From: a bacterium
GTDB lineage: Bacteria; Patescibacteriota; Patescibacteriia; Magasanikbacterales; GWA2-37-8
Direction of reading: 5' to 3'
Assembly: GCA_043810165.1 (NCBI GenBank)
Contig: JBDROJ010000030.1
Span: forward strand, 866 to 64,865
DNA: 64,000 nucleotides
Positions 1,660 through 22,114 of the stretch are shown one piece after another (the first letter of the stretch is position 1; each line of letters starts with the position of its first letter). The notes beneath the pieces were generated by a model, which saw nothing but the letters and a program-made list of their open reading frames with translations, did no database searches and had not been told where the DNA came from. The position numbers and the translations under genes were made by a program.

Positions 1660-1669
1660 CAAATTTTAT

Positions 1670-4879: not shown

Positions 4880-5227
4880 TTGTCGTATTGGTTTATTTAT
4901 TGGCTGTTTTTTAATTATATGGAAAAAATAATTTCCAATTGGACGGGTTCAGAATTTACTTCTGAGTATGTCCGTCGTCAGATTCTTACTCGCTGGGGCG
5001 AGGAAGAAGCGAACAATTACGATCCTAAGAGTAATTGTTTAACTTTTAACCGTTGGCTTAAAAACGGTTTTAAAGTTAAGAAAGGCGAAAAAGCCTTAAA
5101 GTCCTTTATTGTTATTGAACAAAAGGATCAATATGGCAAAGTTATTCGCCAATTACCGAAAAGAATAAGTCTTTTCTATGCTTGCCAAGTCGAGAAAATC
5201 GGCGAGGCAAAAAGTAGTGAATCCTAA
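4880..5227 (+). CDS. ArdC N-terminal-like ssDNA-binding domain protein (possible anti-restriction function). The real start may be the Met at ~4920.
   Basis: The segment ...LTFNRWLKNGFKVKKGEKALKSF... matches the conserved (F/W)xxWxxxGxxVxKGEK signature of the ArdC_N/DUF1738 family. It is the only plus-strand gene inside the prophage. Confidence 0.4.
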   Translation: MSYWFIYWLFFNYMEKIISNWTGSEFTSEYVRRQILTRWGEEEANNYDPKSNCLTFNRWLKNGFKVKKGEKALKSFIVIEQKDQYGKVIRQLPKRISLFYACQVEKIGEAKSSES

Positions 5228-5235
5228 CGGGTTCA

Positions 5236-5934
5236 CTACTTTTTTTGCTGTTTATGATACGGAGGGATGTTTTCATCCTTTGGAAGTAGTCCAGTATTGT
5301 CGTTTGAGTGTTCTTTAATATATTCTCGGTAATATGGAAATTCAGGGTACTTAATAAAGTTCACGGCTTCGTGCGTGTTGTAGCAATTGGCTTTAGTTTT
5401 GTTAAACAAAAATAATTTACGCTTTACCGCTCGTCGTCTTAGGTTGTCATCTTTTAAATCTTGCAATTCAAAATATGAAGCCATAAAGATAAAACGAAAT
5501 AGGTTTTTAACTTCTAAAAAGTGTTGTCCTAAATCTCGTATTCTTTTATCTATATTGCTTGTGTGTTGAACCCCTGCCCAAATATCAAGCGGGATAATAT
5601 TACCGTCTTTGTCTTTTTTAACATCATGTCTATGGGCGGAAAATTTTTGTTTTGCACTCGGAGGCATTTCTTGCCACTCACGAGAATCAAAATATCCCTG
5701 TGCCTCATCAATAAAAATCTGTCCGCCTTTGATAGATAACAGTTCGGGAATTTCAGACCAAAAATATACTTTACCTAAGTTTTCTTTTTTAAGTTTTTTC
5801 TTTTCTATGTATCCGCTAAAGTCTAGCTTCCAATTTGCATATACATCATAACCTTTCAAAAACATTTCAAGTGCCTTGTAAGTCATAAACAAAGTTTTGC
5901 CAGCTCCGGGTTTTCCTGTGATAATTGTGATCAT
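5236..5934 (-). CDS. Zot/pI-like P-loop ATPase (filamentous-phage assembly protein)
   Basis: N-terminal Walker A MITIITGKPGAGKTLFMTY and IFIDEAQ (Walker B-like). The Zot family is the hallmark inovirus morphogenesis ATPase. Position after pIII/pVI is as in the Ff phages. Confidence 0.65.
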   Translation of the reverse strand: MITIITGKPGAGKTLFMTYKALEMFLKGYDVYANWKLDFSGYIEKKKLKKENLGKVYFWSEIPELLSIKGGQIFIDEAQGYFDSREWQEMPPSAKQKFSAHRHDVKKDKDGNIIPLDIWAGVQHTSNIDKRIRDLGQHFLEVKNLFRFIFMASYFELQDLKDDNLRRRAVKRKLFLFNKTKANCYNTHEAVNFIKYPEFPYYREYIKEHSNDNTGLLPKDENIPPYHKQQKK

Positions 5935-5938
5935 ATTT

Positions 5939-6184
5939 TTAAGGCTTTAAAAATGTTACCATTTTGAGAACTAATGTAATGAGAAATAATGTCATTTCAA
6001 CAAAGAGAACTAAAAGAAGAATTTTGAATAATGAGAATAAAGGGAATATCAAATCTATCTTAGCAAGTGTAGGTGTCATAGTTGCAAACGCATTATTAAC
6101 GGCAGTTATAACCGAGTTATTAGGATCAGCTTCGGGTAAAAGTGAGAATATTTTTACCAAGATTGTTTCAATTAAACTAAGCAT
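5939..6184 (-). CDS. pVI-like small hydrophobic minor coat protein
   Basis: 81 aa and strongly hydrophobic (multiple TM). It lies between the pIII-like and Zot-like genes, the same order as gIII-gVI-gI in Ff. Confidence 0.4.
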   Translation of the reverse strand: MLSLIETILVKIFSLLPEADPNNSVITAVNNAFATMTPTLAKIDLIFPLFSLFKILLLVLFVEMTLFLITLVLKMVTFLKP

Positions 6185-6189
6185 AGTGG

Positions 6190-7932
6190 TTATTCGTTAT
6201 CGCTGAATAAATGAGTAATTCTAAATATCACATACACGGCGAAGATGAGCCACAAAATCGCCACAATATATGGTCTAATACCACTAGCAAAATATTTAAC
6301 CCTGCTATCGCTTGCCGAGAATATCTTAATGTCTAAGTCATACTCGCCGTCGCCTGATACAGATTTAAAAGTTATGTCTAAGTCATCATCATCGGGAGCA
6401 GTATATGTGCCGTTAAACATGTTATAAAATCCGTCGTGGAAAGCAAAGTAATAATTAAATACAATTTTACTTCTGAGTAATTCAACTAAACGAGGAAAGA
6501 AAAAATCAAAGTCATCGGAATTATAAATAAAATCAAGGTCTGATACATAAAGTCCGAATGGGTATTGTCTTGTCATTTCGCCGTCATCTGTAAGTTGTAC
6601 TACATAGTGAATTGAATCTGTTGAAGAAGCGGTTAAGTTTACTTGATAATTCCAAGTGTCTGCCATTTGGTCTAAAGCAATACTGTGATAACTACCATTA
6701 AGCAAATCGCCGTCGGAGTTATATTGTTTAATTGTGAAATTTAAGTTTGAGAGGGTTGAAGATGTTGGATATATAAAACCAAAAGTAAATAGACTTGAAG
6801 TTGTACCAGAGGGCAAAGTCAAAGCTGTGTCAAAAACTGGTGATTTAATTTTTATATCGTAATCGTCGTAATAATCAAAATTAAAATACCAGTCGTCGGG
6901 ATAACCCTCTATAATTTCAAGCGGTGATAAAGTTATATAGTCCATTAAGTCATCATAGTCCACGCAGTCGCCTGATACACTAGATATTTCTCGAGCAATA
7001 AGTCGGTGGTTTGTTGCTTCATGATAAAACTGACCGGAAAATTCATTATCTATGCAATCAACATTATAAGTAATATTTTCATAGCCTAGACAATCATTTG
7101 TAAAACCAATTCTATTTTCGCCCACAATCGGACAAGTTCCCGTTACAGTAATGTAGCTGTCATTTATTGCCGGACTATCATTATCATGGCTTGTTATCTC
7201 AAATGGAATAGTAATTGGATCAGCACTAAAAACTTTTACAAATATATCTGTTGATTCGCCACTGGTATATCTAGTCGCACCTTTGTAGTAATAAGCTTGA
7301 CCGTATGGGTAATTTTCACTTGAACCTAAATAATTTGAATTGTTATACATCGTTCTTAATACTGAGCCGGGTTCTCTGTCGTCGTTAGAGGAAATATTTA
7401 AAAGAGCAAAATAATTAGTGTTTGGAGAAACTGAAACAGGTTCGTCAAAGCTAAAATATGCCCATTTGTAATACAATCCGTCGTCTGTTCCACCCTCATC
7501 ACTTGCATAACAATTAACATCATAGTTAATCAATGCGTTTAATTCTTCGGCGGTAAATTCTTTTGAGGCTAAAGGACTTGAGCAACCAGAATACCAACCG
7601 TTTGTCGCTGAATCACACAAAGTTAAAGTTTTTGGTTCGGTAAAGTCGGTAAGACGACAAAGTTTAAATGCCACTGTACTAATTGCTTCCGTGTCGGCCG
7701 TGGTTATAAATTTTTGTCCGTGTCCCGTTTCGTTGCTCACTCGGATAAACCATGTATACCAATTTGAAGCCGGACCAAAATCTACGATGTCGCCTGTATA
7801 ACTATCTTCTGCCTTAGTTATTTGAGCAAACAACAACGATGTGAATAGAGATACTACTAACAATAATATTATTTTTAGTTTATTGTATTTTTTCATAGAC
7901 ATATCTGATTTTGGTACTAGTTTTTTCTTCAT
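6190..7932 (-). CDS. pIII-like adsorption or minor coat protein (secreted, with C-terminal membrane anchor)
   Basis: N-terminal signal peptide KIILLLVVSLFTSLLFAQITKA. Long Asp/Ser/Thr/Tyr-rich ectodomain. Single C-terminal TM PYIVAILWLIFAVYVIF followed by a short tail. Topology and position match g3p. Confidence 0.5.
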   Translation of the reverse strand: MKKKLVPKSDMSMKKYNKLKIILLLVVSLFTSLLFAQITKAEDSYTGDIVDFGPASNWYTWFIRVSNETGHGQKFITTADTEAISTVAFKLCRLTDFTEPKTLTLCDSATNGWYSGCSSPLASKEFTAEELNALINYDVNCYASDEGGTDDGLYYKWAYFSFDEPVSVSPNTNYFALLNISSNDDREPGSVLRTMYNNSNYLGSSENYPYGQAYYYKGATRYTSGESTDIFVKVFSADPITIPFEITSHDNDSPAINDSYITVTGTCPIVGENRIGFTNDCLGYENITYNVDCIDNEFSGQFYHEATNHRLIAREISSVSGDCVDYDDLMDYITLSPLEIIEGYPDDWYFNFDYYDDYDIKIKSPVFDTALTLPSGTTSSLFTFGFIYPTSSTLSNLNFTIKQYNSDGDLLNGSYHSIALDQMADTWNYQVNLTASSTDSIHYVVQLTDDGEMTRQYPFGLYVSDLDFIYNSDDFDFFFPRLVELLRSKIVFNYYFAFHDGFYNMFNGTYTAPDDDDLDITFKSVSGDGEYDLDIKIFSASDSRVKYFASGIRPYIVAILWLIFAVYVIFRITHLFSDNE

Positions 7933-8092
7933 CGTTGCTTAATTTTTTGAATAAAGAATTGATTACTTCAATTTCTTCCGGTTCTTCACGATATTCTTCA
8001 CTAAATTGCTGATCTGCCATAAAATCTTCTATACATTCGTAGAGAAAATTAAGTATAAAATTTCTTTCTTCTTGATTTATGTATATGCGCAT
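7880..8092 (-). CDS. Hypothetical acidic 70-aa protein. It overlaps the pIII-like start.
   Basis: ORF track only. Glu-rich. No motif recognised. Confidence 0.25.
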   Translation of the reverse strand: MRIYINQEERNFILNFLYECIEDFMADQQFSEEYREEPEEIEVINSLFKKLSNDEEKTSTKIRYVYEKIQ

Positions 8093-8190
8093 ATGTTTTA
8101 TTTTATTAGTTTAGATTTAAGAATTTTAATTCGTTATGCCTGTTAGCGGGGGCTTAGGCCATTTGAAAGCCAGCCCCCGCCAGACAAGTT

Positions 8191-8460
8191 CTATTTCATG
8201 AATCTGCGAGCTAAACGCCAAACGAAACCAATTGAAAAGATGATCACACCAACGATTACGATGTTTGCGATGTTAGCGGTTATTACACCGACAACATTTT
8301 CTTTCATCGTATCAACTACCATACCGGTAGTAGAGGCGACATCTGAATCCACGGCTGCGAAAGCATTAGTTCCAGCCAATAATCCACCGGCAACAGCTAG
8401 GCTGAAAGCGGTAATTTTGGCTTTAGATCCAGTCAATAAACTTTTGATTTTGCTAATCAT
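8191..8460 (-). CDS. Major coat protein (g8p-like)
   Basis: 89 aa. Signal peptide ...LLAGTNAFA|AVDSD. The mature ~52-aa peptide has an acidic N-terminus, a hydrophobic core IVIVGVIIFSIGFV and a basic C-terminus WRLARRFMK. This is the canonical inovirus coat architecture. Confidence 0.7.
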   Translation of the reverse strand: MISKIKSLLTGSKAKITAFSLAVAGGLLAGTNAFAAVDSDVASTTGMVVDTMKENVVGVITANIANIVIVGVIIFSIGFVWRLARRFMK

Positions 8461-8471
8461 AGTCTTATTGA

Positions 8472-8618
8472 TTAAATTTTCTTAATGAATAACAATAATA
8501 TGCCGACCACTGCTCCCAGAATAAGACCCAAAACAATCGCTTTAGCAAAGACTATTCCAATAAGTTGGAAATCATCTAAGTAGCACGAATTGTTGAGTAA
8601 GATATATTGAGAACACAT
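8472..8618 (-). CDS. Tiny TM protein (48 aa; g7p/g9p-like), not in the ORF track
   Basis: Manual translation gives MCSQYILLNNSCYLDDFQLIGIVFAKAIVLGLILGAVVGILLLFIKKI. Its ATG lies 1 nt after the upstream ORF's TAA. Confidence 0.45.
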   Translation of the reverse strand: MCSQYILLNNSCYLDDFQLIGIVFAKAIVLGLILGAVVGILLLFIKKI

Positions 8619-8619
8619 A

Positions 8620-8730
8620 TTACTTGCCTGTGGTTATTGCAAAGAAAATACTCAAGACCGTTAATAGCGAGAGAGGAAGAATGAGGCTCAACCCGAGACC
8701 GGCAAATATGTTGTTTATTAGTCCTGTCAT
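8620..8730 (-). CDS. Tiny TM protein (36 aa; g7p/g9p-like), not in the ORF track
   Basis: Manual translation gives MTGLINNIFAGLGLSLILPLSLLTVLSIFFAITTGK. It is tightly packed between neighbouring ORFs. Confidence 0.45.
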   Translation of the reverse strand: MTGLINNIFAGLGLSLILPLSLLTVLSIFFAITTGK

Positions 8731-8734
8731 AAAT

Positions 8735-8887
8735 TTAAGGTTTAAAGATGAGTAAAACGATTACTACCGTAAGCAAGCCAAACAATAGTCCAAACGAAAC
8801 TGTAATAAGTTGGCTGAAAAAGTTAATCAGATCCAACGCTTCGCTGGTTAAGGCATAAGTTGTACTGGCTGTGGTTAGGAGGTTCAT
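8735..8887 (-). CDS. Tiny TM protein (50 aa), not in the ORF track
   Basis: Manual translation gives MNLLTTASTTYALTSEALDLINFFSQLITVSFGLLFGLLTVVIVLLIFKP. It starts 2 nt after the ssb stop. Confidence 0.45.
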   Translation of the reverse strand: MNLLTTASTTYALTSEALDLINFFSQLITVSFGLLFGLLTVVIVLLIFKP

Positions 8888-8889
8888 AA

Positions 8890-9153
8890 CTATTTTTTGT
8901 TAGGAATGTAGTAATCGGCAAAAGCCCTCTTTCTCTTTTTATCAACAATGTGATAAGGGTAAATTTCAATATCTAATGTTATTGTTTCACCCTGTTTGCC
9001 GACTTTTAGATCCATATCGGATACATTTACCTTTATTGGGTAAATACTCCCGACTGGTTCTATGAATAAAGTTCGGCTTTTCCCGGGCGTACCGTCTTTA
9101 CATGTATATTCCCGGAGTTCCTCCTTTTTGAGGACACCTGTTAATTTAAACAT
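8890..9153 (-). CDS. ssDNA-binding protein (gVp-like)
   Basis: 87 aa. Beta-rich and Lys/Gly-rich, as expected for an OB-like fold. It sits immediately upstream of the small-TM and coat genes, which is the g5p position. Confidence 0.45.
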   Translation of the reverse strand: MFKLTGVLKKEELREYTCKDGTPGKSRTLFIEPVGSIYPIKVNVSDMDLKVGKQGETITLDIEIYPYHIVDKKRKRAFADYYIPNKK

Positions 9154-9262
9154 AATGGTATATTCTTTAGATTTTGAATTAAATCCGCAATCGACCTTTT
9201 ATTTTGCGTGCTTGTATTGTAAGTGAACAAGGTTCTGAAAAGTTCTTGTACAAGTTTTCAGA

Positions 9263-9292
9263 ATAATCAAAAAAGCCCCAAGTTATGGGACT
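9263..9292. terminator. Hairpin plus T/A runs downstream of the 9317 gene
   Basis: aaaaAGCCCCAagttaTGGGACTtttt, an imperfect stem with flanking A and T runs. Confidence 0.35.
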
Positions 9293-9316
9293 TTTTGCCG
9301 TTATTTTTTCAGAACT

Positions 9317-10192
9317 TTAGAGGTATTTCTTATTTAATTTTACTTTTCCTTTTCTACCAGTATTAAATTTTAAAAAGTCTTTGTGTTTTGTTTCTTTTTC
9401 TATTTTTTTGCTTAACTCAAAACAAATATTATGATATCTTTTCCAATTATTTTTATCTTTTGTATAGTCTAAATCATAAAATTCATCCTCAGCTATTTCG
9501 GCATAGTAAAAATCGTCTTTTAGATTATCTTTATTGGTAATAAAAATATGATGTAATAATTTGTGGGCATTAGTAATTTTATCTTGTTTGGATATTTTTA
9601 CTTTCACTCCTTGAACATACAAAACACTCTTTTTGTCGTCAAAGTAGGTTTTATTATCCTCGTCATCGCAAGCAAAAAAGCACTTTTTGTCTAATCTATC
9701 AAATACTTCGCTATTTACAACCTCAAAAGATAGTTCTAACATTTGTTTGGAATATGGCTTTGAAAATAATTTGCAAAAATCATCAAAGTCGTCCTTATCT
9801 TGAACACAACATTTTTTAAGTTTTTTCATTTTCTTGTGAACAAGCTCTAAATTAGAGTAGTAAGTCCAAAACTCTTTTGAAAACAAAACATCGCCCTTGA
9901 TTTTTAAGAATTCGTCCTCGTCCCCATACCCATCAGAGCTTTCGCCCATTAGCTTTATGTGGTCGTCAAAAATACCCTGCATGATATTTTTGGCAAGAGG
10001 ATCTGAGTGCAAGAAGTAAATATACTTGTAAATTATGACGAACCGTTGGAATATACTTGTCTCAATACAAAAAAGTCGAGTAAACTCGAGCATTTTTTCC
10101 TTGATTTTGCAAGCATACTGAAGCATGGGTTTTGGTGGAAAATAAGCATATTTTAGTTTATTTATTATACAGGAAAAAATCGGGGTGGACAA
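9317..10192 (-). CDS. Hypothetical Asp/Lys-rich protein at the right edge of the prophage
   Basis: ORF track only. No motif recognised. The true start may be an internal Met. Confidence 0.3.
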   Translation of the reverse strand: MSTPIFSCIINKLKYAYFPPKPMLQYACKIKEKMLEFTRLFCIETSIFQRFVIIYKYIYFLHSDPLAKNIMQGIFDDHIKLMGESSDGYGDEDEFLKIKGDVLFSKEFWTYYSNLELVHKKMKKLKKCCVQDKDDFDDFCKLFSKPYSKQMLELSFEVVNSEVFDRLDKKCFFACDDEDNKTYFDDKKSVLYVQGVKVKISKQDKITNAHKLLHHIFITNKDNLKDDFYYAEIAEDEFYDLDYTKDKNNWKRYHNICFELSKKIEKETKHKDFLKFNTGRKGKVKLNKKYL

Positions 10193-10292: not shown

Positions 10293-12209
10293 ATGGTAAA
10301 TTTTAAAGACAAATTAGAAAATCTATTAAAGAAAGAAAAAGATTTTTTAGATGAAAATGGTGTTATTGATTATATTAAAATAAAAGACTTAGCAGATAAG
10401 ATTGATAGTAGATTAATAGAACTTTTGATTACAAATAATGAAATAAAGAAAAAGTTTTTTTCAAAAATAAAAGATGTTTATGTTTTTAACATCAATCATT
10501 TTAAATTTTTCTTAGATGAAAATAAAGTAAATAATTCATACACTCAATATAAAAATAGAATTGGTTTATCCGACGGAAAAGAATTTATAAATGATAGAAA
10601 TGATACTGTTTTAGATTTTCCTTTTAAGGATTGTATATTGGAAGGTGGACAAAGCACAGAAGAAGGCATTGATACTTATTTTGAATATTCTGATAAAACT
10701 GAAAAATATGAAGAAAAGACAGCAAAAAGAAATGAAGTATTCTTTAATCAAGTACTTGCACATGATGAAATAGATAGACTTTGTGATAGAAAAGCTCTTG
10801 TAAATTGGAAACGATTTACTAAAGATAGCAAGAAAGATGGTGAAATTGTAAAAGAAATAAAACGAGATAAAAAAGGTTTAATACAAGAGAATTTAATTAT
10901 AAAAGGTAATAACTTACTTGCTTTACATAGTCTAAAATCTGAATTTGCAGGGAATATAAAACTTATTTATATTGATCCTCCTTATAATACAAAAACAGAC
11001 AGTTTTGTTTATAATGATAACTTTAATCATAGTACATGGCTAACCTTTATGAAAAACAGGTTGGAGTTAGCTAATGAATTATTAAGGGATGACGGAATAC
11101 TTTTTGTGCAATGTGATGATAATGAACAATCTTATTTAAAAGTATTAATGGATGAAATATTTGATAGGGAAAATTTTGTAGGAACCTTGATTCATCAAAG
11201 AGCAAAAGGAGGCGGAAATGCAAAACATATCGTAAAAGGACATGATTATATTACCATCTTTGCAAAAAAACTAAGTAAAAACCATAAATTTATTAGAGAA
11301 AAAGTCATTCAAGCAAAAGTCATTGAAATAGATGGTGTTTTCTACTTAAGAAATGATGATGTTGTTAGAAAAGTTTTTGGTAAATATGATACATCTTTAG
11401 GAGATAGAAGATGTTTTTATGAAGAACTTGAAAAATATAAAAATGAAAAACAAATTAAAGAAATCAAAGAAAAAATTAAAAATAAAGATTATGTTTTAGA
11501 AAACTTTGGTAATGGAATGCAAGTGATAGTAAAATATACACCCATAGAAGAATCCTATTCAAAGTTGTATTCAATAGTCAAAGCATTATCTGAAGATGGT
11601 AATAATGAAATAAGTGAGCTTGGATTAGATTTTAGTAATCCAAAACCAGAACAAATTATAAAATTTTTAATTGAAGCGGTTACTAAACCTACAGATATTG
11701 TTTTAGATTATCATCTTGGATCAGGAACTACCTGTGCAGTTGCTCACAAAATGAATAGACAATATATTGGGATTGAACAAATGGATTATATTGAAACTGT
11801 TGCTGTAGAAAGAATGAAAAAAGTTATTAAAGGTGAACAAGGAGGAATTTCAAAATCAGTTGATTGGAAAGGTGGTGGCGAATTTATTTATTGTGAGCTT
11901 GCAAAATGGAACGAACAAGCAAAAGAAGAAATACAAAACGTAAAAGATTTATCTGCTTTCGTAAAGCTCTTTGATACTTTGTATAAAAAATATTTCCTAA
12001 ATTACAATGTTAAAATTAAGGATTTTAAAGAAAATATAATGAAAGAAGAAAACTTTAAAAAACTTACTCTTATACAACAAAAGAAAATGTTTTTGGCTAT
12101 GCTTGATTTAAATCAAATGTATGTTAATGAAAGCGAAATGGCAGATAAAAAATATGGGATTAGCGTTGAAGATCAAAAACTAACAAATACTTTCTATAGT
12201 AAAAAATAA
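10293..12209 (+). CDS. mod: Type III restriction-modification methyltransferase (Mod), N6-adenine beta-class
   Basis: Motif IV IYIDPPYN comes before motif I DYHLGSGTT. That order defines beta-class N6A/N4C MTases. 638 aa. Directly followed by a Res-type helicase. Confidence 0.8.
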   Translation: MVNFKDKLENLLKKEKDFLDENGVIDYIKIKDLADKIDSRLIELLITNNEIKKKFFSKIKDVYVFNINHFKFFLDENKVNNSYTQYKNRIGLSDGKEFINDRNDTVLDFPFKDCILEGGQSTEEGIDTYFEYSDKTEKYEEKTAKRNEVFFNQVLAHDEIDRLCDRKALVNWKRFTKDSKKDGEIVKEIKRDKKGLIQENLIIKGNNLLALHSLKSEFAGNIKLIYIDPPYNTKTDSFVYNDNFNHSTWLTFMKNRLELANELLRDDGILFVQCDDNEQSYLKVLMDEIFDRENFVGTLIHQRAKGGGNAKHIVKGHDYITIFAKKLSKNHKFIREKVIQAKVIEIDGVFYLRNDDVVRKVFGKYDTSLGDRRCFYEELEKYKNEKQIKEIKEKIKNKDYVLENFGNGMQVIVKYTPIEESYSKLYSIVKALSEDGNNEISELGLDFSNPKPEQIIKFLIEAVTKPTDIVLDYHLGSGTTCAVAHKMNRQYIGIEQMDYIETVAVERMKKVIKGEQGGISKSVDWKGGGEFIYCELAKWNEQAKEEIQNVKDLSAFVKLFDTLYKKYFLNYNVKIKDFKENIMKEENFKKLTLIQQKKMFLAMLDLNQMYVNESEMADKKYGISVEDQKLTNTFYSKK

Positions 12210-12210
12210 T

Positions 12211-14958
12211 ATGGAAGAATTGTATCAACAAATAAATACAGAAAAAAATACACTTAAAAAATATGCTCCGGAAGTCATTGAGATTCCTAAATATATTTTA
12301 AATAATATTAAATATGATTTATTTGAGTGGCAAAAAGAAGCATTGGAAAATTTTTTTGTGTATGAAAAAGATCATAAACAAAACCCCACCCATTTAATGT
12401 TTAATATGGCTACGGGAACAGGTAAAACCTTAGTCATGGCCTCTCTTATTTTGTTTTATTATCAAAAAGGTTATAGAAATTTTATATTTTTTGTAAATCA
12501 AAATAATATTGTGGATAAAACAGAAAATAATTTTATTAATAATACTCACAATAAATATTTATTTACAGATAAAATTACTATTGACGGGAAAATTATAAAT
12601 ATTAAAAAAGTTAATAACTTTTCTGACAATTCTTCTGACATACAAATAAAATTTACTACCATACAAAAACTATACAATGATATACATTTAGAAAAAGAAA
12701 ACAATATTACATTGGAAGAACTTTATAAAAAAGATATTATAATGTTAGCTGATGAAGCACATCATCTTAATACAAATACAAACAAAAAGCAGAAAGAGTT
12801 AGATCTAAATTTGGAATTAAAAGATAATGCAAGCAAAGAAGATATTGAAAGAAAAGGCTGGGAACATACCGTTATTGAATTGATTTTAAAAAAGAATGGA
12901 AAAGAAAGTAATAATATTTTATTAGAGTTTACTGCGACTATTCCGACAGAGCCTAATGTTGTAAAAAAATATAAAGATAAGACAATTTATAAATTTAGTC
13001 TAAAAGATTTTTTAAAGAAAGGTTATACAAAAGAAATCAATTTGATTGGTTCAACCTTTAGTAAAAAAGAAAGAATTTTACATGCCTTGCTTTTTAATTG
13101 GTATAGACATGAAGTTGCTTTAAAAAACAATATACATAATTTTAAACCTGTTATCCTTTTCAGAAGTAAAACTATTGAAGAATCAGAAAAAGATTATCAA
13201 GTTTTTTTGAATTTGATAAATAATTTAAATATTAAAGATTTTGCATTTTTTAATAAAATAAAAGATAAAATTACAGAAAACGATAATCCCTATGAACAAG
13301 GAAGATCTCGCACAGAAGATGTTTTAAATTTTGTAGAAAATACAAAAGGTAGATATTCTGAAGTGGTAAATTTTATAAAAGAAAATTTTCAAGAAAAAAA
13401 CTTGATAATTACTAACTCAAAAGATAAAGATGCTAAAGGTGAAAAAGGCGGTGAAAAAACAACAGAAAAACAGAATGATCTTCTAAATAATTTAGAAGAT
13501 ATAAATAATCACATAAGAGGTATTTTTACAGTAAAACGATTAACAGAGGGTTGGGATGTATTAAATTTGTTTGACATAGTCCGTCTTTATAAGGGGCAGA
13601 ATGTTGGAGGAACACACAAAGGAAAAACACCCGAAACGACAATACAAGAAAAGCAATTAATTGGTAGAGGTGTTAGATATTGTCCTTTTACTTACAAAGA
13701 TGAACAAAGAAATAAAAGAAAGTTTAATAATAATTTGAAAAATGAGCTAAGAGTATTGGAAGAACTTTATTATTATACTTACGATGACCCAAACAATAAA
13801 GCAGAACACAACTATATTATAGAATTGAAAGCCGAACTAAGAAAAGACGGCTATATTGATGATAATAAAATTGTTAAAAAATTTGACTTAAAAAAAGAAT
13901 TTAAAGATATTCCTTTTTATAAAAAAATTAAAATTTGGAAAAATAATCAAATTGACAATCCAGATAGACAAAAAGAAAACTTGAATACTTTAGCTAAAGA
14001 TTTTTTTAGCTCATATACAATTAGTGGTATTTCTTTGTCAGAAGACTGGATGAAAAATTTAGATGATGAAGATGAAATGCAAAGATTAATCTTATCAGAA
14101 CAAAATTTAAAAGTAATTAATGATAAAACTTTTAAAGATTTTGAATATAATATCTTTAGAAAAGCGATACACATAAAATCACAAAAGGAAAATTCTTTTT
14201 ATAGATTTGATAATTTGAAAGATAATTTGAAAATAAATAGTATAGATGATTTGTTAGGAAAAGATTTTTTTGGTTCTTTTAAAATTAATATTATTGTAGA
14301 AAAGAAAACAAATTTTGAAGATATTGATAATGAAGAAAAATTAAAGATTATTTCTAAATTTCTTAATGATATTGAAAATAAACTTAAATCATATATAAAA
14401 CCAAAGATAGGAACGCCTGAATTTAAAGCTTATAAATTTTCAGATATTTTTGATAAACCTAAAACAAAAAGCGTTGATAAAAAAACAGTAGAAGATTCAG
14501 AAAATTTAGCTGATGTGTTAAAAAATGAAGAATGGTATATTTTGAATGATTTTGTTGGTACTGATCAAGAAATAGAGCTTATTAAATTTATACAAGAAAG
14601 AGTTGGTAATTTAGATGAAAAGTATAAAGAATATTATCTTTTAAGAAATGAAGAAGTTTATAAAATATATGACTTTGAAGAAGGTCGTGGATTTCAGCCG
14701 GATTTCTTATTGTTTTTAAAAGGCAAAAAAGACAAAGTTTACTATCAAATTTTTATTGAACCAAAACAAAAAAAATACATGACTTCGGAAAATGAAATAT
14801 GGAAAGAAAATTTCTTAGAGCAAATTAGTGAAAAATTTGGAGATAAAAAAATATTAAAGGAAGAAAATGAAAATTATAAATTATTTGGGTTGCCTTTCTT
14901 TAATAATGAAGAGGAATATAGAAATAATTTTGAAGAAAACTTTGGTAAATTAATTTAA
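12211..14958 (+). CDS. res: Type III restriction enzyme Res subunit (SF2 helicase plus endonuclease)
   Basis: Walker A MATGTGKT and DEAH box IIMLADEAHHLN. 915 aa. Starts 2 nt after the mod stop. Confidence 0.8.
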   Translation: MEELYQQINTEKNTLKKYAPEVIEIPKYILNNIKYDLFEWQKEALENFFVYEKDHKQNPTHLMFNMATGTGKTLVMASLILFYYQKGYRNFIFFVNQNNIVDKTENNFINNTHNKYLFTDKITIDGKIINIKKVNNFSDNSSDIQIKFTTIQKLYNDIHLEKENNITLEELYKKDIIMLADEAHHLNTNTNKKQKELDLNLELKDNASKEDIERKGWEHTVIELILKKNGKESNNILLEFTATIPTEPNVVKKYKDKTIYKFSLKDFLKKGYTKEINLIGSTFSKKERILHALLFNWYRHEVALKNNIHNFKPVILFRSKTIEESEKDYQVFLNLINNLNIKDFAFFNKIKDKITENDNPYEQGRSRTEDVLNFVENTKGRYSEVVNFIKENFQEKNLIITNSKDKDAKGEKGGEKTTEKQNDLLNNLEDINNHIRGIFTVKRLTEGWDVLNLFDIVRLYKGQNVGGTHKGKTPETTIQEKQLIGRGVRYCPFTYKDEQRNKRKFNNNLKNELRVLEELYYYTYDDPNNKAEHNYIIELKAELRKDGYIDDNKIVKKFDLKKEFKDIPFYKKIKIWKNNQIDNPDRQKENLNTLAKDFFSSYTISGISLSEDWMKNLDDEDEMQRLILSEQNLKVINDKTFKDFEYNIFRKAIHIKSQKENSFYRFDNLKDNLKINSIDDLLGKDFFGSFKINIIVEKKTNFEDIDNEEKLKIISKFLNDIENKLKSYIKPKIGTPEFKAYKFSDIFDKPKTKSVDKKTVEDSENLADVLKNEEWYILNDFVGTDQEIELIKFIQERVGNLDEKYKEYYLLRNEEVYKIYDFEEGRGFQPDFLLFLKGKKDKVYYQIFIEPKQKKYMTSENEIWKENFLEQISEKFGDKKILKEENENYKLFGLPFFNNEEEYRNNFEENFGKLI

Positions 14959-14969
14959 TATATCTTAAT

Positions 14970-16442
14970 GTGAATTTATATTTTTCTGATTTTTTTAAAG
15001 TAGATCCTAAGATTATTGAAGAATATGGTGCTTTTGACATATCGCTAATTTTTGATTTACCTCTGTTTATCGATCCTTTTTTATTGTTTAATAGTAAAAA
15101 AGATGATTATAAAGAACTTCATGAAAAGATAATTGATTATTTAAAATTTTTAAAAGATAAGTCTGTAAATGGTAGTCTAGACAGCGGTGCTTTAAAAACT
15201 TGGTATTTATTTCAAGAGGTTGAACAAAATTGGTTTGGTTTCTCGTTAAAAGGTAATAAAGGTAGTGGTTTGGGCATGGATTTTGCCACAGCTTTAAATG
15301 AAAATCTATATAAAATATTTAGTAAATTTGGAGAAGAAGATATTACTAAAGGAAGTCATCTTGAAAAGTTATGCTTAATAAAAGATGGTATAGGTAAAGA
15401 TAATATTAGTGATTTTGCTACAAATTTGATTAAAGATTTTTTGTTGGAATATACAGAGACATTTACAAAAAAATATATAGACCCTGCATTAACAAAAAAA
15501 TTTAGAGTAAAAAAAGCAAAATTTAATTATAAAACCGAGACATGGGAAGAAGGAATATATCAATTACCTAAACATGAAGATAATTTTGTTTTATTAACTC
15601 CTAAAGAATTGCTTACAAAAGATGATACGTGGATTAACAAGACTGATTTAATAAAAGATTTTGAAAATATACCAGATTCTATCTCGGATGATCAACTTAG
15701 ATTTCAAATTAATAATTATTTTAAAAGTCAATTAACTAATGAACCAAATAAAGAACCAACAAAAAAAGAAAAAATAAAGGCTACTTTTGCAACACTCCAA
15801 GAATTTCCTGACTTAATAGATTTTTTTATAAAATATAAAGAAGATAATGGTGAGAGAGCAGAAAGTATTAGTGATGAAAAAGTTAAATTTTCATCAAATG
15901 TATATGTAGAAAATGTAAAAAAAATAATTCCTGAATTATCCAAAATAGGTTTTTATACATCTTATAAAGAATTTAGTTATGACGAGGCTCATACCCAAAT
16001 TTTAAATTTAAAAGATTTTATTGAAAATAATGACGGTTATAGACTGTTTTATGATAATAACGATAATGTTATAAGATCGGAAAAAGAATTACAATTACTT
16101 TTCGCTTTGGTGTGTAAAAATTCTATTTTTGATGTCAACAGAGAGCCAAATAATGGTCGTGGTCCTGTTGATTTTGCAATTTCAATGGGTCGTTCTGACA
16201 AGACACTTATCGAATTTAAACTGGCTAAAAATACCAGTTTAAAGAAAAATTTACAAAAACAAGTTGAAATATATCAAAATGCCAATGGAACAGATAAAGC
16301 TTTTAAAGTGATTATCTATTTTACAGAAAAAGAACAAGAACGAGTATATAAAATTTTAAGAGTGCTTAATTTAAACAATGAATCTAATATAGTTTTAATT
16401 GACGCTAGAATTGATAATAAGCCGTCAGCCTCGAACGCTTAA
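14970..16442 (+). CDS. Hypothetical 490-aa protein with a C-terminal PD-(D/E)xK nuclease-like motif. Candidate defence effector co-transcribed with the Type III R-M.
   Basis: The C-terminal NGRGPVDFAISMGRSDKTLIEFKLAK carries D...E-x-K with the spacing of the restriction-endonuclease fold. The ORF starts 11 nt after the res stop. Confidence 0.45.
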   Translation: MNLYFSDFFKVDPKIIEEYGAFDISLIFDLPLFIDPFLLFNSKKDDYKELHEKIIDYLKFLKDKSVNGSLDSGALKTWYLFQEVEQNWFGFSLKGNKGSGLGMDFATALNENLYKIFSKFGEEDITKGSHLEKLCLIKDGIGKDNISDFATNLIKDFLLEYTETFTKKYIDPALTKKFRVKKAKFNYKTETWEEGIYQLPKHEDNFVLLTPKELLTKDDTWINKTDLIKDFENIPDSISDDQLRFQINNYFKSQLTNEPNKEPTKKEKIKATFATLQEFPDLIDFFIKYKEDNGERAESISDEKVKFSSNVYVENVKKIIPELSKIGFYTSYKEFSYDEAHTQILNLKDFIENNDGYRLFYDNNDNVIRSEKELQLLFALVCKNSIFDVNREPNNGRGPVDFAISMGRSDKTLIEFKLAKNTSLKKNLQKQVEIYQNANGTDKAFKVIIYFTEKEQERVYKILRVLNLNNESNIVLIDARIDNKPSASNA

Positions 16443-16455
16443 TTTATAATATAAT

Positions 16456-16833
16456 ATGAATTCTAAATATAGAATTACACCTCAAACAACTAATCTTTAT
16501 AATGCCTTAATGGATAAGGGTATTAAATGCAAGATTGAAGATAACGACGGTTATAAAACGGTTGACATTTCTATACCGGAAGCAAGAATAAATATTGAAG
16601 TTGACGGATTACAACATTTTACCAATCCGGATCAAATATATGCTGATTTTGACAGAAGTTATTGGTCATATAAAAGAAATAACCGTGATACATTTCATAT
16701 CCCCAATACTATTATAGATAGTCATTTAGAAGAAGTTGCTAATGCTTTAACTACAGTAGCAAAAAGATGTATAAAAGAAATTGAGGAAAATAACAAGGGA
16801 TTTTACAGTTGGATTAAAAAAATATTCAAATAA
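16456..16833 (+). CDS. DUF559/Vsr-like endonuclease-domain protein
   Basis: ARINIEVDGLQHF matches the DUF559 VIEVDGxxH signature, followed by DFDRSYW. 125 aa. It starts 13 nt after the previous stop. Confidence 0.45.
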   Translation: MNSKYRITPQTTNLYNALMDKGIKCKIEDNDGYKTVDISIPEARINIEVDGLQHFTNPDQIYADFDRSYWSYKRNNRDTFHIPNTIIDSHLEEVANALTTVAKRCIKEIEENNKGFYSWIKKIFK

Positions 16834-16868
16834 AGAAGTTGTAGTGAAAAATAGCAAAAATAATTTAT

Positions 16869-17072
16869 ATGCAATTTACCGATAAACAATTAGATAGTTT
16901 CATCGCTTTATATAAAAAAGAGTTTGGCGACGAATTAAGCAAAGGTGAGGCTCTCCAAAAAGCAACCTCTTTGGTTTCTATGGTAAAATTGACATATGTA
17001 CCCATGACAGAAAAAGATTTTAAAGAAAGTATGGAAGCTTGTATTAAAAGTCAAAAAACACAAATTAATTAA
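16869..17072 (+). CDS. Hypothetical 67-aa protein
   Basis: ORF track only. Confidence 0.25.
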   Translation: MQFTDKQLDSFIALYKKEFGDELSKGEALQKATSLVSMVKLTYVPMTEKDFKESMEACIKSQKTQIN

Positions 17073-18423
17073 AATTTAGCTCAACCTTGCTAAAAAAAGT
17101 TCTGAACCCGTCCGCGTATGCGAGCCAAGAGAGATTGAGCGAGGTCAAAGCCTCGTTTTTTCTTTTTGTTGAGCCAAAATCAAGCGGTTCTAACCCTCTC
17201 ATTTTAGCATTAAAATTTTGAGCGTTGTCGTAAATAGGAAGCAACCAATTATTGACTGTAATTAGCACTTTTTTGTCTTCAATTACTCGGTTCGAACCTA
17301 GATTATTAAGTACCTGTTTTTTCTTGGTGTTATCACCCTCTTTGAATTTTTTTAAAGCATAAGCAGAAAAAATAAACTTTTCTTTGGTCAGTTCAATAAT
17401 TTCTTCCTCGGTTTTTTGTTTGCTATCTTTACCATTAAATTTTTCAACTTGTTTTTTAAGATTGTTTTTTTCTTTCAAAAATTCGTCATCATCCAATAAT
17501 CCTCTGGCTCTCATCATAGTTAATTCAGATAAATTGCTTTCTAACTCTTTAACTTTATCATCTCGGCTATTATCAATTACTTTGTTTTCTTGTTTCACCT
17601 TACCTTTTTGTTTATCTAAATAATCTAAACTCCACTGTAAAAACAATGGGTGCATTTCTAATTTTTCCAGTTTTTTAGTAATATTTTTGGTTATTTCTTT
17701 TTCTTCCACTGATCCTTGTTTACAAACAATAGTTTTTTTCTTATGAGTACAGTGATAATAGTCATAACCTTTGACTTTATTTTTAGCCTTAATATATTTA
17801 GTATGATGTTCTGCTGTAATACCACAACCACAATAATTACATTTAAACATACCTGCATAAGTAAAGTCATGCTTTTTAGGCTTTCTTTTGCAACCTCGTT
17901 TGCCTAATATTTCTTGGATACGATTAAACTCATCTAAATTGAGCAATGGTTTATGCTTACCTTTGCTCTCAAGGCCATTATATACGTTTATACCAGCGTA
18001 AAAGGGGTTAGCTAGTATTTTATACCAACTAGACCGAGATAAAGCCTTACCGCCTGATTTTTTCTTTTTTCTCGTTATATATCCCCAGTCATTATTTAAT
18101 ATATTTAAAACCTCTTGAGCGGTATATGAATTTGTCAGCATTAAATCAAAAGCCTTTCTAAGTAAGACTGATCTTTTTTTATCAACAATAATAGTTCTTT
18201 GCCCTTTTTCTAGCCTAACATCATTCAAATACCCCTCGGGAGCAATACCAGGTCGCCAACCTAAAGATATTTTTTTCTCTAATCCACGTTTAACATCTTT
18301 ACCTAGTTTAGATGAAAAGTATTGAGATTGAGAAAGGGCTAATTGCAACATCATTATACCCTCGGGGGAATTATCAAAATTATATGAGGCAAACTTTAAA
18401 TCATGGATAATCCCTGTTCGCAC
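17065..18423 (-). pseudogene. 5'-truncated large serine recombinase (resolvase catalytic domain missing). The 3' end overlaps a tRNA-3'-like sequence.
   Basis: It contains the recombinase-domain zinc ribbon (CNYCGCGITAEHH...YYHCTHKK) and a coiled coil. The frame is closed immediately upstream of 18423, where the IS fragment starts. The C-terminus ...LSWLAYADGFRT is encoded over aGTTCTGAACCcgtccgcgtatgcgagCCA, which is T-loop-like. Confidence 0.65.
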
Positions 18424-18437: not shown

Positions 18438-19028
18438 TTGAAGTTTTATCTGGTGGCCATAATGGACTGGTATTCCAGATATGTCATAAGTTGGAAATTA
18501 TCATCTAGCTTAAAATCAGACTTTTGTATTGATTGTTTAAAACAAGCCTTAAAACTGGCTATACCAAATATTCACAATTCAGATCAAGGCGTTCAATTTA
18601 CGGACAAGGAATATATTGCTATACTACAATCAGAACCGACTATTAAAATCAGTATGGACGGGCGCGGGCGGTGCTTTGACAACATATTTACTGAAAGGCT
18701 TTGGCGGAACGTCAAATACGAAGAGGTCTATTTAAATGATTACGAGCCATTTGACGAGGCCAAGGAATCTTTAAATGATTATTTTCATAAATACAACTAC
18801 GAGCGCATTCATGAAAGTCTAAATTACCAAACTCCAGCTGAAGTGTATTTTAGACAAAAAAATCAAAAAAACAACAATGGACAAAAAAACGAAAGCCTAG
18901 AATGGCTTCTAAGCCCCGAGGCCGAAGCCAGACGATATCTGATGCCAAATAATCCAAAAGATTTTATTATTAATAACCAAATAATTCAATTAAATCCAAA
19001 GGTCGAGAAAATCACATTAAATTGTTAA
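18438..19028 (+). mobile_element. IS3-family transposase OrfB fragment (rve/DDE integrase core, N-terminally truncated; TTG start in the ORF track)
   Basis: HNSDQGVQFT ... ISMDGRGRCFDNIFTERLWRNVKYEEVYL ... YNYERIHESLNYQTPAEVY matches the IS3/rve catalytic core. The HTH or OrfA part and the first catalytic Asp are absent. It abuts the truncated recombinase. Confidence 0.7.
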
Positions 19029-22110: not shown

Positions 22111-22114
22111 TAAT

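What the first reader, a model, noticed from the sequence alone, without database searches (positions are those of the whole stretch)
10293..17072. Type III R-M operon extended by a PD-(D/E)xK protein, a DUF559/Vsr-like endonuclease and a small ORF: candidate composite defence module
Mod (DPPYN before the FxGxG-like DYHLGSGTT motif) and Res (GTGKT/DEAH) are canonical. Three further co-oriented ORFs follow with gaps of 11, 13 and 35 nt. The first is a 490-aa protein whose only recognisable feature is a C-terminal GRGPVDF...IEFKLAK PD-(D/E)xK motif. The second is a 125-aa protein with the DUF559 IEVDGxxH signature. The third is a 67-aa protein. The gap spacing suggests one transcript. The N-terminal ~380 aa of the 490-aa protein match nothing I recognise. 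An extra nuclease downstream of Type III R-M is not standard. The block sits between the inovirus and a second recombinase remnant, so it is probably mobile cargo.
Basis: partly seen in the sequence, partly recalled or inferred. Interest (0 to 1): 0.7.

Follow-up and report, generated by a model that had tools for sequence, protein, structure and literature searches.

The report
R-M operon plus independent defence-gene cargo
A standard Type III restriction-modification operon carried by a filamentous-phage-like element is followed by three unrelated add-on genes, one of which belongs to a large, uncharacterised family that looks like a stand-alone anti-phage protein made of a conserved unknown front part and an interchangeable "weapon" domain.

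Summary
All five ORFs, their motifs and the 11/13/35-nt gaps are confirmed. Mod and Res form a complete, canonical Type III R-M system.

The three extra genes are not a conserved extension of it. Contigs with a 87-91% identical Res, two of which also share the upstream inovirus-like genes, lose homology 3 nt after the res stop codon. They lack all three genes, and one carries a Shedu (SduA) homolog in that slot.

The 490-aa protein belongs to a very large "hypothetical" family (Pfam DUF8370+DUF8371):
- A confident AlphaFold model shows a C-terminal restriction-endonuclease fold with conserved E371/D401/E415/K417/Q431.
- The ~365-aa N-terminal module has no structural relative in the PDB.
- In relatives that module is fused to TIR, CHAT or caspase domains instead, while its invariant polar residues are kept.
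- Homologs have no fixed neighbour but often sit at the 3' end of R-M operons of several types, in defence islands, and on plasmids.

ORF4 is a divergent DUF559/Vsr-like protein with unrelated contexts elsewhere. ORF5 resembles a recombinase-adjacent small gene.

Best reading: this is a defence-cargo slot, and ORF3 is a candidate single-protein sensor-nuclease immune gene that has not been tested experimentally.

The parts
10293..12209 (+). Type III R-M Mod subunit (beta-class N6/N4 DNA methyltransferase, 638 aa)
   Evidence: PF01555 7e-44 and PF12564 (TypeIII_RM_meth) 5e-16. PADLOC MTase_III 1e-200. DPPY at aa 228 precedes GSGTT at aa 476. It is 57% identical to Mod in L093/L094, with conserved ends and a divergent middle.
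12211..14958 (+). Type III R-M Res subunit (SF2 helicase plus C-terminal PD-(D/E)xK, 915 aa)
   Evidence: PF04851 ResIII 2e-27. PADLOC REase_III 5e-109 covering residues 2-902. GTGKT at 69, DEAH at 181, QPDF...IEPK at 829-852. It is 87-91% identical to Res in L093-L095.
14959..14969 (.). Junction: end of the conserved R-M unit and start of the variable cargo slot
   Evidence: DNA homology to L093, L094 and L095 ends at window 14958-14961, that is 0-3 nt after the res stop codon.
14970..16064 (+). ORF3 N-terminal constant module (aa 1-~365; DUF8370 region): unknown fold, candidate sensor or regulatory part
16065..16442 (+). ORF3 C-terminal PD-(D/E)xK nuclease domain (aa ~366-490): candidate effector
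16456..16833 (+). ORF4: small divergent DUF559/Vsr-like endonuclease-fold protein (125 aa)
   Evidence: Direct hits were only weak: Vsr 0.058 and MTES_1575 0.094. A profile of 6 relatives reaches proteins carrying PF04480/PF18741 at 1e-27 to 1e-34. D37, E48, D50, G51 and H54 are invariant. Its contexts elsewhere are unrelated.
16869..17072 (+). ORF5: 67-aa protein of unknown function, related to a recombinase-adjacent small gene
   Evidence: No family hit. It is 34% identical over 53-56 aa to the 67-aa gene immediately upstream of the serine recombinase in L081/L082. Its 3' end overlaps the convergent recombinase remnant by 8 nt.
17137..17158 (+). First terminator-like hairpin on the + strand after the five genes
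   Evidence: Consensus scan only, so this is weak evidence.
17065..18423 (-). Large serine recombinase remnant lacking the catalytic Resolvase domain
   Evidence: PF07508 and PF13408 hit but PF00239 does not. The XisF model match starts at model position 103. phrog_95 integrase 3.5e-46. A 94% identical DNA copy lies at 42888-43632.
18438..19028 (+). IS3-type transposase (rve) fragment abutting the truncated end of the recombinase
   Evidence: rve_3, rve and rve_2 hits on a 196-aa ORF.
1681..10192 (-). Inovirus-like integrative element backbone next to tRNA-Glu and tRNA-Gln: serine recombinase 1681-3315, G2P Rep 3795-4577, Zot 5236-5934, 580-aa protein 6190-7932, coat-like 8191-8460, 87-aa 8890-9153, 291-aa 9317-10192
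   Evidence: Pfam Resolvase+Recombinase+Zn_ribbon, REP_ORF2-G2P and Zot. tRNAs at 1588-1741. The same genes precede mod-res in L093/L094.

Best explanation
The region is the accessory-cargo end of an inovirus-like integrative element. A complete, canonical Type III restriction-modification operon (mod-res) is the conserved cargo. Immediately after the res stop codon begins a variable slot that holds different genes in sister elements.

In this window the slot holds three genes that move independently of each other and of the R-M system, although they are probably read through from the R-M promoter.

1. ORF3 is a stand-alone, single-polypeptide immune-type protein of the uncharacterised DUF8370/DUF8371 family. 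It has a strongly conserved ~365-aa N-terminal module of unknown fold and a C-terminal PD-(D/E)xK nuclease. The N-terminal module carries an invariant cluster of acidic and polar residues. I infer that it is a sensor or regulatory part that binds a conserved ligand or nucleic-acid feature. I also infer that on an infection signal this module releases or activates the nuclease, which cuts DNA. That would stop the phage directly or by killing the infected cell.
2. ORF4 is a small DUF559/Vsr-fold endonuclease-like protein of unknown role.
3. ORF5 is a small protein that elsewhere accompanies a serine recombinase, so it probably belongs to mobile-element housekeeping.

What is shown: gene content, domain folds, residue conservation, effector swapping, independence from this R-M system, and the slot being shared with Shedu. 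What is inferred: a defence function for ORF3, the sensor-to-nuclease activation, and the abortive outcome.
For: Independence from the R-M system:
- L093, L094 and L095 carry a Res 87-91% identical to this one, and L093/L094 also carry the same upstream inovirus-like genes. Homology ends 0-3 nt after the res stop, and ORF3-5 are absent.
- In L093 the slot holds a 369-aa protein matching solved Shedu SduA structures at 1e-13. A validated single-gene nuclease defence therefore occupies the same position.

ORF3 family size and spread:
- More than 6,171 hits in the large protein database.
- 2,436 representatives of 50%-identity clusters at E<=1e-3.
- At least 509 matches in GTDB species genomes, across CPR, Proteobacteria, Bacillota, Actinomycetota, Acidobacteriota and Chloroflexota.
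- Every source names it a hypothetical protein.

ORF3 structure:
- AF2 mean pLDDT 90.9, pTM 0.89.
- The catalytic residues are conserved.

Effector swapping:
- Relatives replace the nuclease with TIR (5 proteins) or CHAT (2 proteins).
- Others append CHAT or caspase, one with EAD7 (3 proteins).
- All 10 keep the N-terminal invariant residues but lose D401, and most lose E415 and Q431.

Genomic context:
- No neighbour is conserved in 80 loci.
- 19-21 of 80 loci have Type I, IIG, III or IV restriction genes or SNF2/ResIII-type helicases within four genes (19 without the helicase cluster).
- About 10 of the 27 tightly coupled upstream partners are R-M genes of different types.
- Close relatives sit in dense defence islands with AbiU2-like, Ppl-like, Hachiman HamB, DpnII R-M and PDC-S21 genes.
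- Homologs occur on 19 plasmids, 9 of them conjugative, including as apparent Tn3-associated cargo (flanked by a Tn3 transposase/recombinase and an IS256).
- The N-terminal half matches the PADLOC candidate PDC-M36A. That candidate was found by being embedded in BREX, DISARM or Type I R-M systems.

ORF4 and ORF5.
Against: - No experiment supports defence by any member of this family. PDC-M36 is itself an untested candidate.
- The N-terminal module is unusually conserved (50-68% identity across phyla). That is atypical for sensors of fast-evolving phage proteins and could instead indicate an enzyme with a housekeeping-like or DNA-processing role.
- Three variants (P0244, P0257, P0273) keep a degenerate nuclease-like region and add a protease. 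The C-terminal domain may therefore also serve as a DNA-binding or structural part, not only as an effector.
- In the nearest clade the gene is repeatedly the 3' gene of Type III-like operons. A functional link to R-M is therefore not excluded.
- I could not read model coordinates, so the spatial clustering of the conserved residues was inferred from secondary-structure positions and fold matches. It was not measured.
- The AFDB fold library was unavailable.
Confidence: 0.6

Rival explanations
1. Composite system. ORF3, possibly with ORF4 and ORF5, is a functional accessory of the Type III R-M enzyme. It might act as a second nuclease recruited by, or regulated with, Res and Mod, so that the five genes act as one defence unit.
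For: - The gaps are 11, 13 and 35 nt, and there is no internal terminator-like site.
- ORF3 homologs are the tightly spaced last gene after Type III-like MTase and Res pairs in L001, L004, L005, L076 and L081.
- The same holds after a methyltransferase, DEAD/DEAH helicase and GIY-YIG nuclease set on a Paenarthrobacter plasmid.
- An ORF4 relative follows a MethyltransfD12 and ResIII/RE_endonuc pair in L090.
Against: - The closest relatives of this very R-M system (Res 87-91% identical) lack all three genes.
- About three quarters of ORF3 loci have none of the recurring R-M neighbour families within four genes, and the partners that do occur are Type I, II, IIG, III or IV.
- The R-M partners are only 22-47% identical to each other, while ORF3 is 61-78% identical.
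- ORF4 and ORF5 never accompany ORF3 in the 80 GTDB loci, and the closest ORF3 relative (L081-L084) has no ORF4 and carries its ORF5-like gene elsewhere, beside the serine recombinase.
- TIR and protease variants make no sense as subunits of an R-M enzyme.
Confidence: 0.1
2. ORF3 is a Type IV (modification-dependent) or otherwise direct restriction endonuclease. The conserved N-terminal module would read a DNA feature such as a modified base, and the PD-(D/E)xK domain would cut the invading DNA directly, with no abortive component.
For: - It is a stand-alone gene with a BstYI/BamHI-like nuclease fold.
- It lies beside R-M and GmrSD-type genes.
- The N-terminus is very conserved, as expected for a reader of an invariant chemical feature.
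- It sits beside a methyltransferase-bearing system, as many Type IV enzymes do.
Against: - Relatives swap the nuclease for TIR, CHAT or caspase domains, which cannot restrict DNA directly.
- The N-terminus has no similarity to any solved protein and matches no known defence model in PADLOC other than PDC-M36A.
Confidence: 0.15
3. ORF3 serves the mobile elements that carry it, for example in DNA processing, element maintenance or addiction, and is not an anti-phage gene.
For: - Neighbours include serine recombinases in 8 of 80 loci, TraG/TrwB coupling proteins in 3, and transposases.
- It occurs on 19 plasmids and as apparent Tn3-associated cargo, between a Tn3 transposase/recombinase and an IS256.
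- It occurs on 10 IMG/VR contigs.
Against: - There is no conserved mobile-element partner and no fixed position relative to recombinases.
- TIR, CHAT and caspase+EAD7 effector swaps are characteristic of conflict or immune proteins.
- A sister element has Shedu in the same slot.
- It is absent from 50,697 GenBank phage records.
Confidence: 0.1

Closest known systems
Type III restriction-modification systems (EcoP15I/EcoP1I type)
   Same: mod lies upstream of res with a 1-nt gap. Mod is a beta-class N6/N4 methyltransferase with the Type III N-terminal domain. Res has SF2 helicase motifs and a C-terminal PD-(D/E)xK motif. PADLOC Type III profiles match both proteins over most of their length.
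   Different: Nothing notable was found. The recognition site, methylated base and cleavage behaviour are unknown. The middle of Mod differs from that of its nearest relatives, which suggests a different specificity.
Shedu (SduA), a single-gene defence nuclease
   Same: Both are single polypeptides with an N-terminal regulatory or sensing part and a C-terminal PD-(D/E)xK nuclease, and both are stand-alone. A SduA homolog occupies the same slot after the same R-M system in sister contig L093.
PADLOC phage defence candidate PDC-M36 (Payne et al., bioRxiv 10.1101/2024.01.29.577857)
   Same: The ORF3 N-terminal half (aa 21-249) matches the PDC-M36A profile at 1.3e-22. Like the PDC candidates, ORF3 homologs are found embedded in or appended to restriction systems.
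   Different: Only profile positions 22-245 of 457 match. PDC-M36 is a three-gene cassette, FAM_01399>>FAM_00303>>FAM_00303, whereas ORF3 homologs have no conserved partner. PDC-M36 is itself untested.
Modular immune proteins with a constant core and swappable effector domains (for example Avs/NLR-like STAND proteins and Lamassu LmuA; recalled from general knowledge)
   Same: One conserved module is combined with alternative nuclease, TIR, CHAT or caspase effectors, including an EAD7 adaptor domain.
   Different: No NTPase, SMC or other known core domain is detectable in ORF3. The protein is small (490 aa), and its constant module is a fold with no solved relative.
DUF559 / Vsr-like very-short-patch endonuclease superfamily (for ORF4)
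   Same: ORF4 has the conserved D...ExDGxxH motif and the right size. Profile-linked relatives carry PF04480 and PF18741.
   Different: Direct Pfam and NCBIfam matches fall below threshold. The adjacent methyltransferase is an N6/N4 enzyme, not a C5 enzyme, so a Vsr-type T:G repair role beside it is not expected from what is known of Vsr.

Membership tests
Type III R-M system | Mod: N6/N4 methyltransferase with motif IV (DPPY) before motif I (FxGxG), plus the Type III Mod N-terminal domain | tested here: met
   PF01555 7e-44 and PF12564 5e-16. MTase_III 1e-200. DPPY at aa 228, GSGTT at aa 476.
Type III R-M system | Res: SF2 helicase motifs plus a C-terminal PD-(D/E)xK endonuclease motif, encoded directly after mod | tested here: met
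   PF04851 2e-27. REase_III 5e-109 over residues 2-902. GTGKT 69, DEAH 181, QPDF...IEPK 829-852. The gap between mod and res is 1 nt.
Type III R-M system | ATP-dependent cleavage that needs Mod and Res together, and hemi-methylation of an asymmetric site | not testable with these tools
   This needs biochemistry or long-read methylome data.
Pfam DUF8370 + DUF8371 family (ORF3) | Matches to PF28123 and PF28130 | tested here: met
   The identical protein P0001 and all 120 listed relatives carry precomputed PF28130 and PF28123. The local Pfam copy does not hold these models.
PD-(D/E)xK nuclease superfamily (ORF3 C-terminal domain) | The alpha-beta-beta-beta-alpha-beta core fold | tested here: met
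PD-(D/E)xK nuclease superfamily (ORF3 C-terminal domain) | A conserved catalytic D...(D/E)xK set at the expected strand positions | tested here: met
   D401 is conserved in 60/68 sequences and lies just before strand 2. E415 (61/68) and K417 (67/68) lie in strand 3. E371 is conserved in 65/68 and Q431 in 57/68.
PD-(D/E)xK nuclease superfamily (ORF3 C-terminal domain) | Metal-dependent nuclease activity | not testable with these tools
   This needs purified protein.
PADLOC PDC-M36 | Full-length match to the PDC-M36A profile | tested here: not met
   Only profile positions 22-245 of 457 match, on ORF3 aa 21-249.
PADLOC PDC-M36 | A three-gene cassette with two FAM_00303 partner genes | tested here: not met
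   ORF4, ORF5 and the other neighbours gave no PDC-M36 hit. No neighbour is conserved in 80 loci.
Shedu (SduA) | A DUF4263-type nuclease domain or a match to SduA profiles | tested here: not met
Type IV (modification-dependent) restriction enzymes | A recognisable modified-DNA reader domain joined to a nuclease | tested here: not met
   The N-terminal module has no Pfam, NCBIfam or PDB relative. Relatives exist without a nuclease.
DUF559 / Vsr-like endonucleases (ORF4) | A match to PF04480, PF18741 or TIGR00632 above threshold | tested here: inconclusive
   Direct matches were Vsr E 0.058 and MTES_1575 E 0.094, both below the cut-offs. A profile of ORF4 relatives reaches many proteins with precomputed PF04480/PF18741 at 1e-27 to 1e-34.
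DUF559 / Vsr-like endonucleases (ORF4) | The conserved acidic and histidine motif (D...ExDGxxH) | tested here: met
   D37, E48, D50, G51 and H54 are invariant among the relatives.

The most novel reading that the evidence does not exclude
The DUF8370 module is a new sensor fold, possibly an enzyme, that acts as a guard of restriction systems. It would monitor a conserved signal produced when R-M systems of any type are attacked or fail. Examples of such a signal are a phage anti-restriction factor, or a DNA intermediate left by translocating restriction enzymes. It would then fire an interchangeable effector (nuclease, TIR NADase or caspase/CHAT protease) as a second line of defence. This reading would explain the extreme conservation of the module, the repeated placement of the gene as the last gene of very different R-M operons, and the effector swapping.
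Probability: 0.12. Interest if true: 0.8.

Novelty: new variant of a known kind. Interest (0 to 1): 0.55.

Why it matters
The R-M operon itself is ordinary, and so is the idea of defence genes clustering on mobile elements.

What is worth following up is ORF3's family:
- It has thousands of members across most bacterial phyla and on conjugative plasmids.
- It is catalogued only as two DUFs.
- It has a confidently predicted ~365-residue module with no solved structural relative and a dozen invariant polar residues.
- That module is combined in nature with four different kinds of cell-killing or DNA-cutting effector.

That is the signature of an undescribed single-gene immune system. If defence is confirmed, the family would add a widespread new sensor module to the bacterial immune repertoire and give a tractable 490-aa protein for finding out what it senses.

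The window also gives a clean natural comparison for experiments: the same element and the same R-M system, with either this gene or Shedu in the slot.

Tried and rejected
- The first AlphaFold run, with 20 similar sequences, gave pLDDT 60 and was discarded. A 68-sequence diverse alignment was needed.
- The AFDB Foldseek library was unavailable. The BFVD viral library gave only weak matches to nuclease domains.
- Sequence and profile searches of ORF3 against the PDB found nothing.
- Exact look-ups of the window protein's source contig failed.
- Literature searches for PDC-M36, DUF8370/DUF8371 and homolog accessions found nothing beyond the PADLOC candidate list. The supplementary family annotations for FAM_01399 and FAM_00303 were cut off in the stored files.
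- I considered that the 22-nt repeat at 950-971 and 22070-22114 marked att sites of a 21-kb island. I rejected this because its 14-nt core motif occurs 22 times in clusters across the window, so it is a dispersed palindromic repeat.
- I looked for an ORF5 paralog next to the intact recombinase in the window and found none.
- I considered ORF3+ORF4 as a two-gene unit. I rejected this because ORF4 is absent near all 80 ORF3 homologs and near the 78%-identical relative.
- The bulk neighbour scans report only counts per family, so the R-M fraction near ORF3 homologs is a lower bound drawn from recurring clusters.
Full report
**Observation**

The five co-oriented ORFs are at the stated coordinates: mod 10293-12209, res 12211-14958, ORF3 14970-16442 (GTG start), ORF4 16456-16833 and ORF5 16869-17072. 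The gaps between them are 1, 11, 13 and 35 nt. All quoted motifs are present. No terminator-like site lies on the + strand inside the block. The first follows ORF5, at 17137-17158, and a promoter-like site precedes mod at 10216-10244. Both are consensus matches only. GC falls to 0.22-0.28 across 10-17 kb, against 0.31-0.40 in the flanks.

**The R-M system**

Mod has the N6_N4 methyltransferase domain and the Type III Mod N-terminal domain, and Res has the ResIII helicase domain. The best PADLOC Type III profile for Mod scores 1e-200 in two stretches, and the REase_III profile covers Res residues 2-902 at 5e-109. Res also carries its own C-terminal PD...ExK motif. This is a complete, ordinary Type III system.

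**ORF3: size of the family**

The protein is identical to an NCBI MAG entry annotated "hypothetical protein". It belongs to a very large family:
- more than 6,171 hits in the word-indexed database;
- 2,436 representatives of 50%-identity clusters at E<=1e-3;
- at least 509 matches in GTDB species genomes.

The family spans CPR phyla, Proteobacteria, Bacillota, Actinomycetota, Acidobacteriota and Chloroflexota at 50-68% identity. Precomputed Pfam hits are PF28123 (DUF8370) and PF28130 (DUF8371). Local Pfam and NCBIfam have no model for it. Sources call it hypothetical everywhere I looked. PADLOC matches only its N-terminal half, to the candidate PDC-M36A at 1.3e-22. PDC-M36 is an untested three-gene candidate from a screen for genes embedded in BREX, DISARM and Type I R-M systems.

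**ORF3: structure**

A first model from 20 similar sequences was poor. A 68-sequence alignment that included representatives at 30-52% identity gave pLDDT 90.9 and pTM 0.89.

**ORF3: effector swapping**

Among the representatives, ten longer or differently ending proteins were scanned:
- Five have TIR in place of the nuclease region.
- Two have CHAT in its place.
- Three keep a nuclease-like region and add CHAT or a caspase. One of these also has an EAD7 effector-associated domain.

All ten keep every N-terminal invariant residue. All ten lack D401, and most lack E415 and Q431. The N-terminal module is therefore the constant part, and the nuclease is one of several interchangeable effectors. 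That architecture is typical of immune or conflict proteins.

**ORF3: genomic context**

In 80 GTDB loci with 10-kb flanks, no neighbour family is conserved. ORF4 and ORF5 are never nearby, and relatives of this window's Mod or Res are detectable in only four loci.

Recurring neighbours are Type I HsdM/R/S, Type III-like Res and Mod, MmeI-type IIG enzymes, GmrSD-HNH, SNF2 helicases, serine recombinases and conjugative coupling proteins. Between 19 and 21 of the 80 loci have such restriction genes or SNF2/ResIII-type helicases within four genes (19 without the helicase cluster). In 27 loci a co-oriented upstream gene lies within 60 nt, and roughly ten of those partners are R-M components of several types.

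The closest relatives are especially often the last gene after Type III-like pairs (L001, L004, L005, L076, L081), but they also occur in other settings:
- between a DpnII-type R-M system and a Hachiman HamB gene (L006);
- after a PDC-S21 candidate (L002);
- next to AbiU2-like and Ppl-like genes (L081).

On plasmids, a Paenarthrobacter plasmid has the order methyltransferase, DEAD/DEAH helicase, GIY-YIG nuclease, homolog. On S. meliloti pSmeSM11a the homolog sits between a Tn3 transposase/recombinase and an IS256. There is no hit in the GenBank phage set. Ten IMG/VR contigs carry a homolog.

**The reciprocal test**

I searched for close relatives of this Res. Three metagenome contigs carry a Res 87-91% identical to it. 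L093 and L094 also share the coat-like gene (81%), the 87-aa gene (74%), the 291-aa gene (58%) and the 580-aa gene (53%) upstream. Their Mod is 57% identical, with conserved ends.

DNA homology with the window stops at 14958-14961, right after the res stop codon. ORF3, ORF4 and ORF5 are absent. In L093 the slot between res and a full-length serine recombinase holds three genes:
- a 369-aa protein that matches solved Shedu SduA structures at 1e-13;
- a 160-aa hydrophobic protein, probably membrane-bound;
- a 70-aa ORF.

So the R-M system is conserved cargo of this inovirus-like element. The region 3' of res is a variable slot that holds a known single-gene nuclease defence in one element and ORF3-5 in another.

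**ORF4**

Direct family hits are below threshold: Vsr 0.058 and MTES_1575 0.094. PDB sequence searches are negative. A first search with the single ORF4 sequence found only five relatives; a profile built from them then recovered dozens more at 42-69% identity. The same profile search reaches many proteins carrying DUF559 (PF04480) and PF18741 at 1e-27 to 1e-34. D37, E48, D50, G51 and H54 are invariant. ORF4 is therefore a divergent DUF559/Vsr-fold protein.

Its relatives sit in four different settings:
- near dnaA and dnaN among small unknown genes;
- after an HD-domain gene, near a tyrosine integrase;
- beside McrB-HNH and Schlafen-like genes;
- directly after a methyltransferase and ResIII/RE_endonuc pair.

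There is no fixed partner.

**ORF5**

ORF5 has no family hit. Its only relative found is the 67-aa gene immediately upstream of the serine recombinase in L081 and L082 (34% identity). In the window it is convergent with the recombinase remnant and overlaps it by 8 nt. It most likely belongs to a recombinase or mobile-element module.

**Interpretation**

The five genes are best read as a defence-cargo region, not as one composite system. The parts are a canonical Type III R-M system, an independently mobile candidate immune gene (ORF3), a small DUF559-like gene and a mobile-element leftover. They are probably co-transcribed because of where they were inserted.

For ORF3 I commit to a mechanism in which the N-terminal module senses a signal and the C-terminal nuclease acts as the effector. 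My confidence is about 0.6 that it is a stand-alone defence gene, and lower for the details of the mechanism. The very high conservation of the N-terminal module argues that it recognises a conserved ligand or nucleic-acid feature, or is an enzyme. It argues against recognition of a variable phage protein. This last point is inference.

The rivals cannot be fully excluded without experiments. They are an R-M accessory subunit, a direct Type IV-like restriction enzyme, and a mobile-element function.

**Novelty**

The R-M system and the island architecture are known kinds. The ORF3 family is catalogued in Pfam as two DUFs and is partly related to a PADLOC candidate, but I found no evidence that it has been characterised. 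The effector-swap pattern, the N-terminal module with no solved relative, and the slot shared with Shedu make it a good candidate for a new single-gene defence family.

Noticed in passing
window 1588-10192: An integrated inovirus-like element lies beside tRNA-Glu and tRNA-Gln. It has a full large serine recombinase (whose ORF overlaps the tRNA-Gln end), a G2P rolling-circle Rep, a Zot protein, a 580-aa protein and a coat-like 89-aa protein. The same genes precede the same Type III R-M system in L093/L094. A filamentous-phage-like element therefore appears to carry an R-M system as conserved cargo.
   Followed up: partly
L093 9134-10243: In the sister contig, the slot just after the 91%-identical res holds a Shedu SduA homolog (E 1e-13 to PDB 8ti8/8ti9/8ps4). 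It is followed by a 160-aa hydrophobic (probably membrane) protein, a 70-aa ORF and a full serine recombinase.
   Followed up: partly
window 910-966, 1417-1568, 22073-22109, 35211-35337, 55750-55863, 59303-59428 and others: A dispersed palindromic repeat with core CGCTCGCAATGACA occurs 22 times in clusters, on both strands, against 0.2 expected by chance. It resembles REP-type intergenic repeats.
   Followed up: partly
window 17121-17865 and 42888-43632: The C-terminal part of the serine recombinase remnant is duplicated at 94% DNA identity about 25 kb away, where it lies in a 279-aa ORF (42778-43617, minus strand). The window therefore holds two decayed copies of one recombinase.
   Followed up: partly
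window 10293-12209 vs L093 3964-5996: Mod is only 57% identical to its counterpart although the adjacent Res is 91% identical. DNA identity is about 79-87% at the two ends of mod and is lost in the middle. This is consistent with exchange of the target-recognition region and a change of specificity.
   Followed up: no
window 19095-20783: A PIF1/RecD-like SF1 helicase with a C-terminal HTH_40 domain lies just past the IS fragment. It matches the PADLOC candidates PDC-S68 and PDC-M16A at 1e-17 to 1e-20.
   Followed up: no
L081 4563-14070: The locus of the closest ORF3 relative (78% identity) has this order: Type III MTase, an embedded 194-aa AbiU2-like HEPN gene, Type III REase, a 179-aa unknown gene, the ORF3 homolog, then a 961-aa Ppl-like/AAA_23 protein. 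It also lies beside a G2P Rep and a serine recombinase.
   Followed up: partly
window 1097-1408: A small GIY-YIG domain ORF (103 aa) lies between clusters of the palindromic repeat, upstream of the tRNA genes.
   Followed up: no
L002 2575-5174: The Type III res homolog in this locus is split into a 96-aa ORF and a 642-aa ORF with a gap between them. It may be a frameshifted or decaying gene.
   Followed up: no
window 9317-10192: A 291-aa ORF (TTG start, minus strand) between the inovirus-like genes and mod has no family hit in any library. It is conserved at 58% identity at the same position in L093/L094.
   Followed up: no
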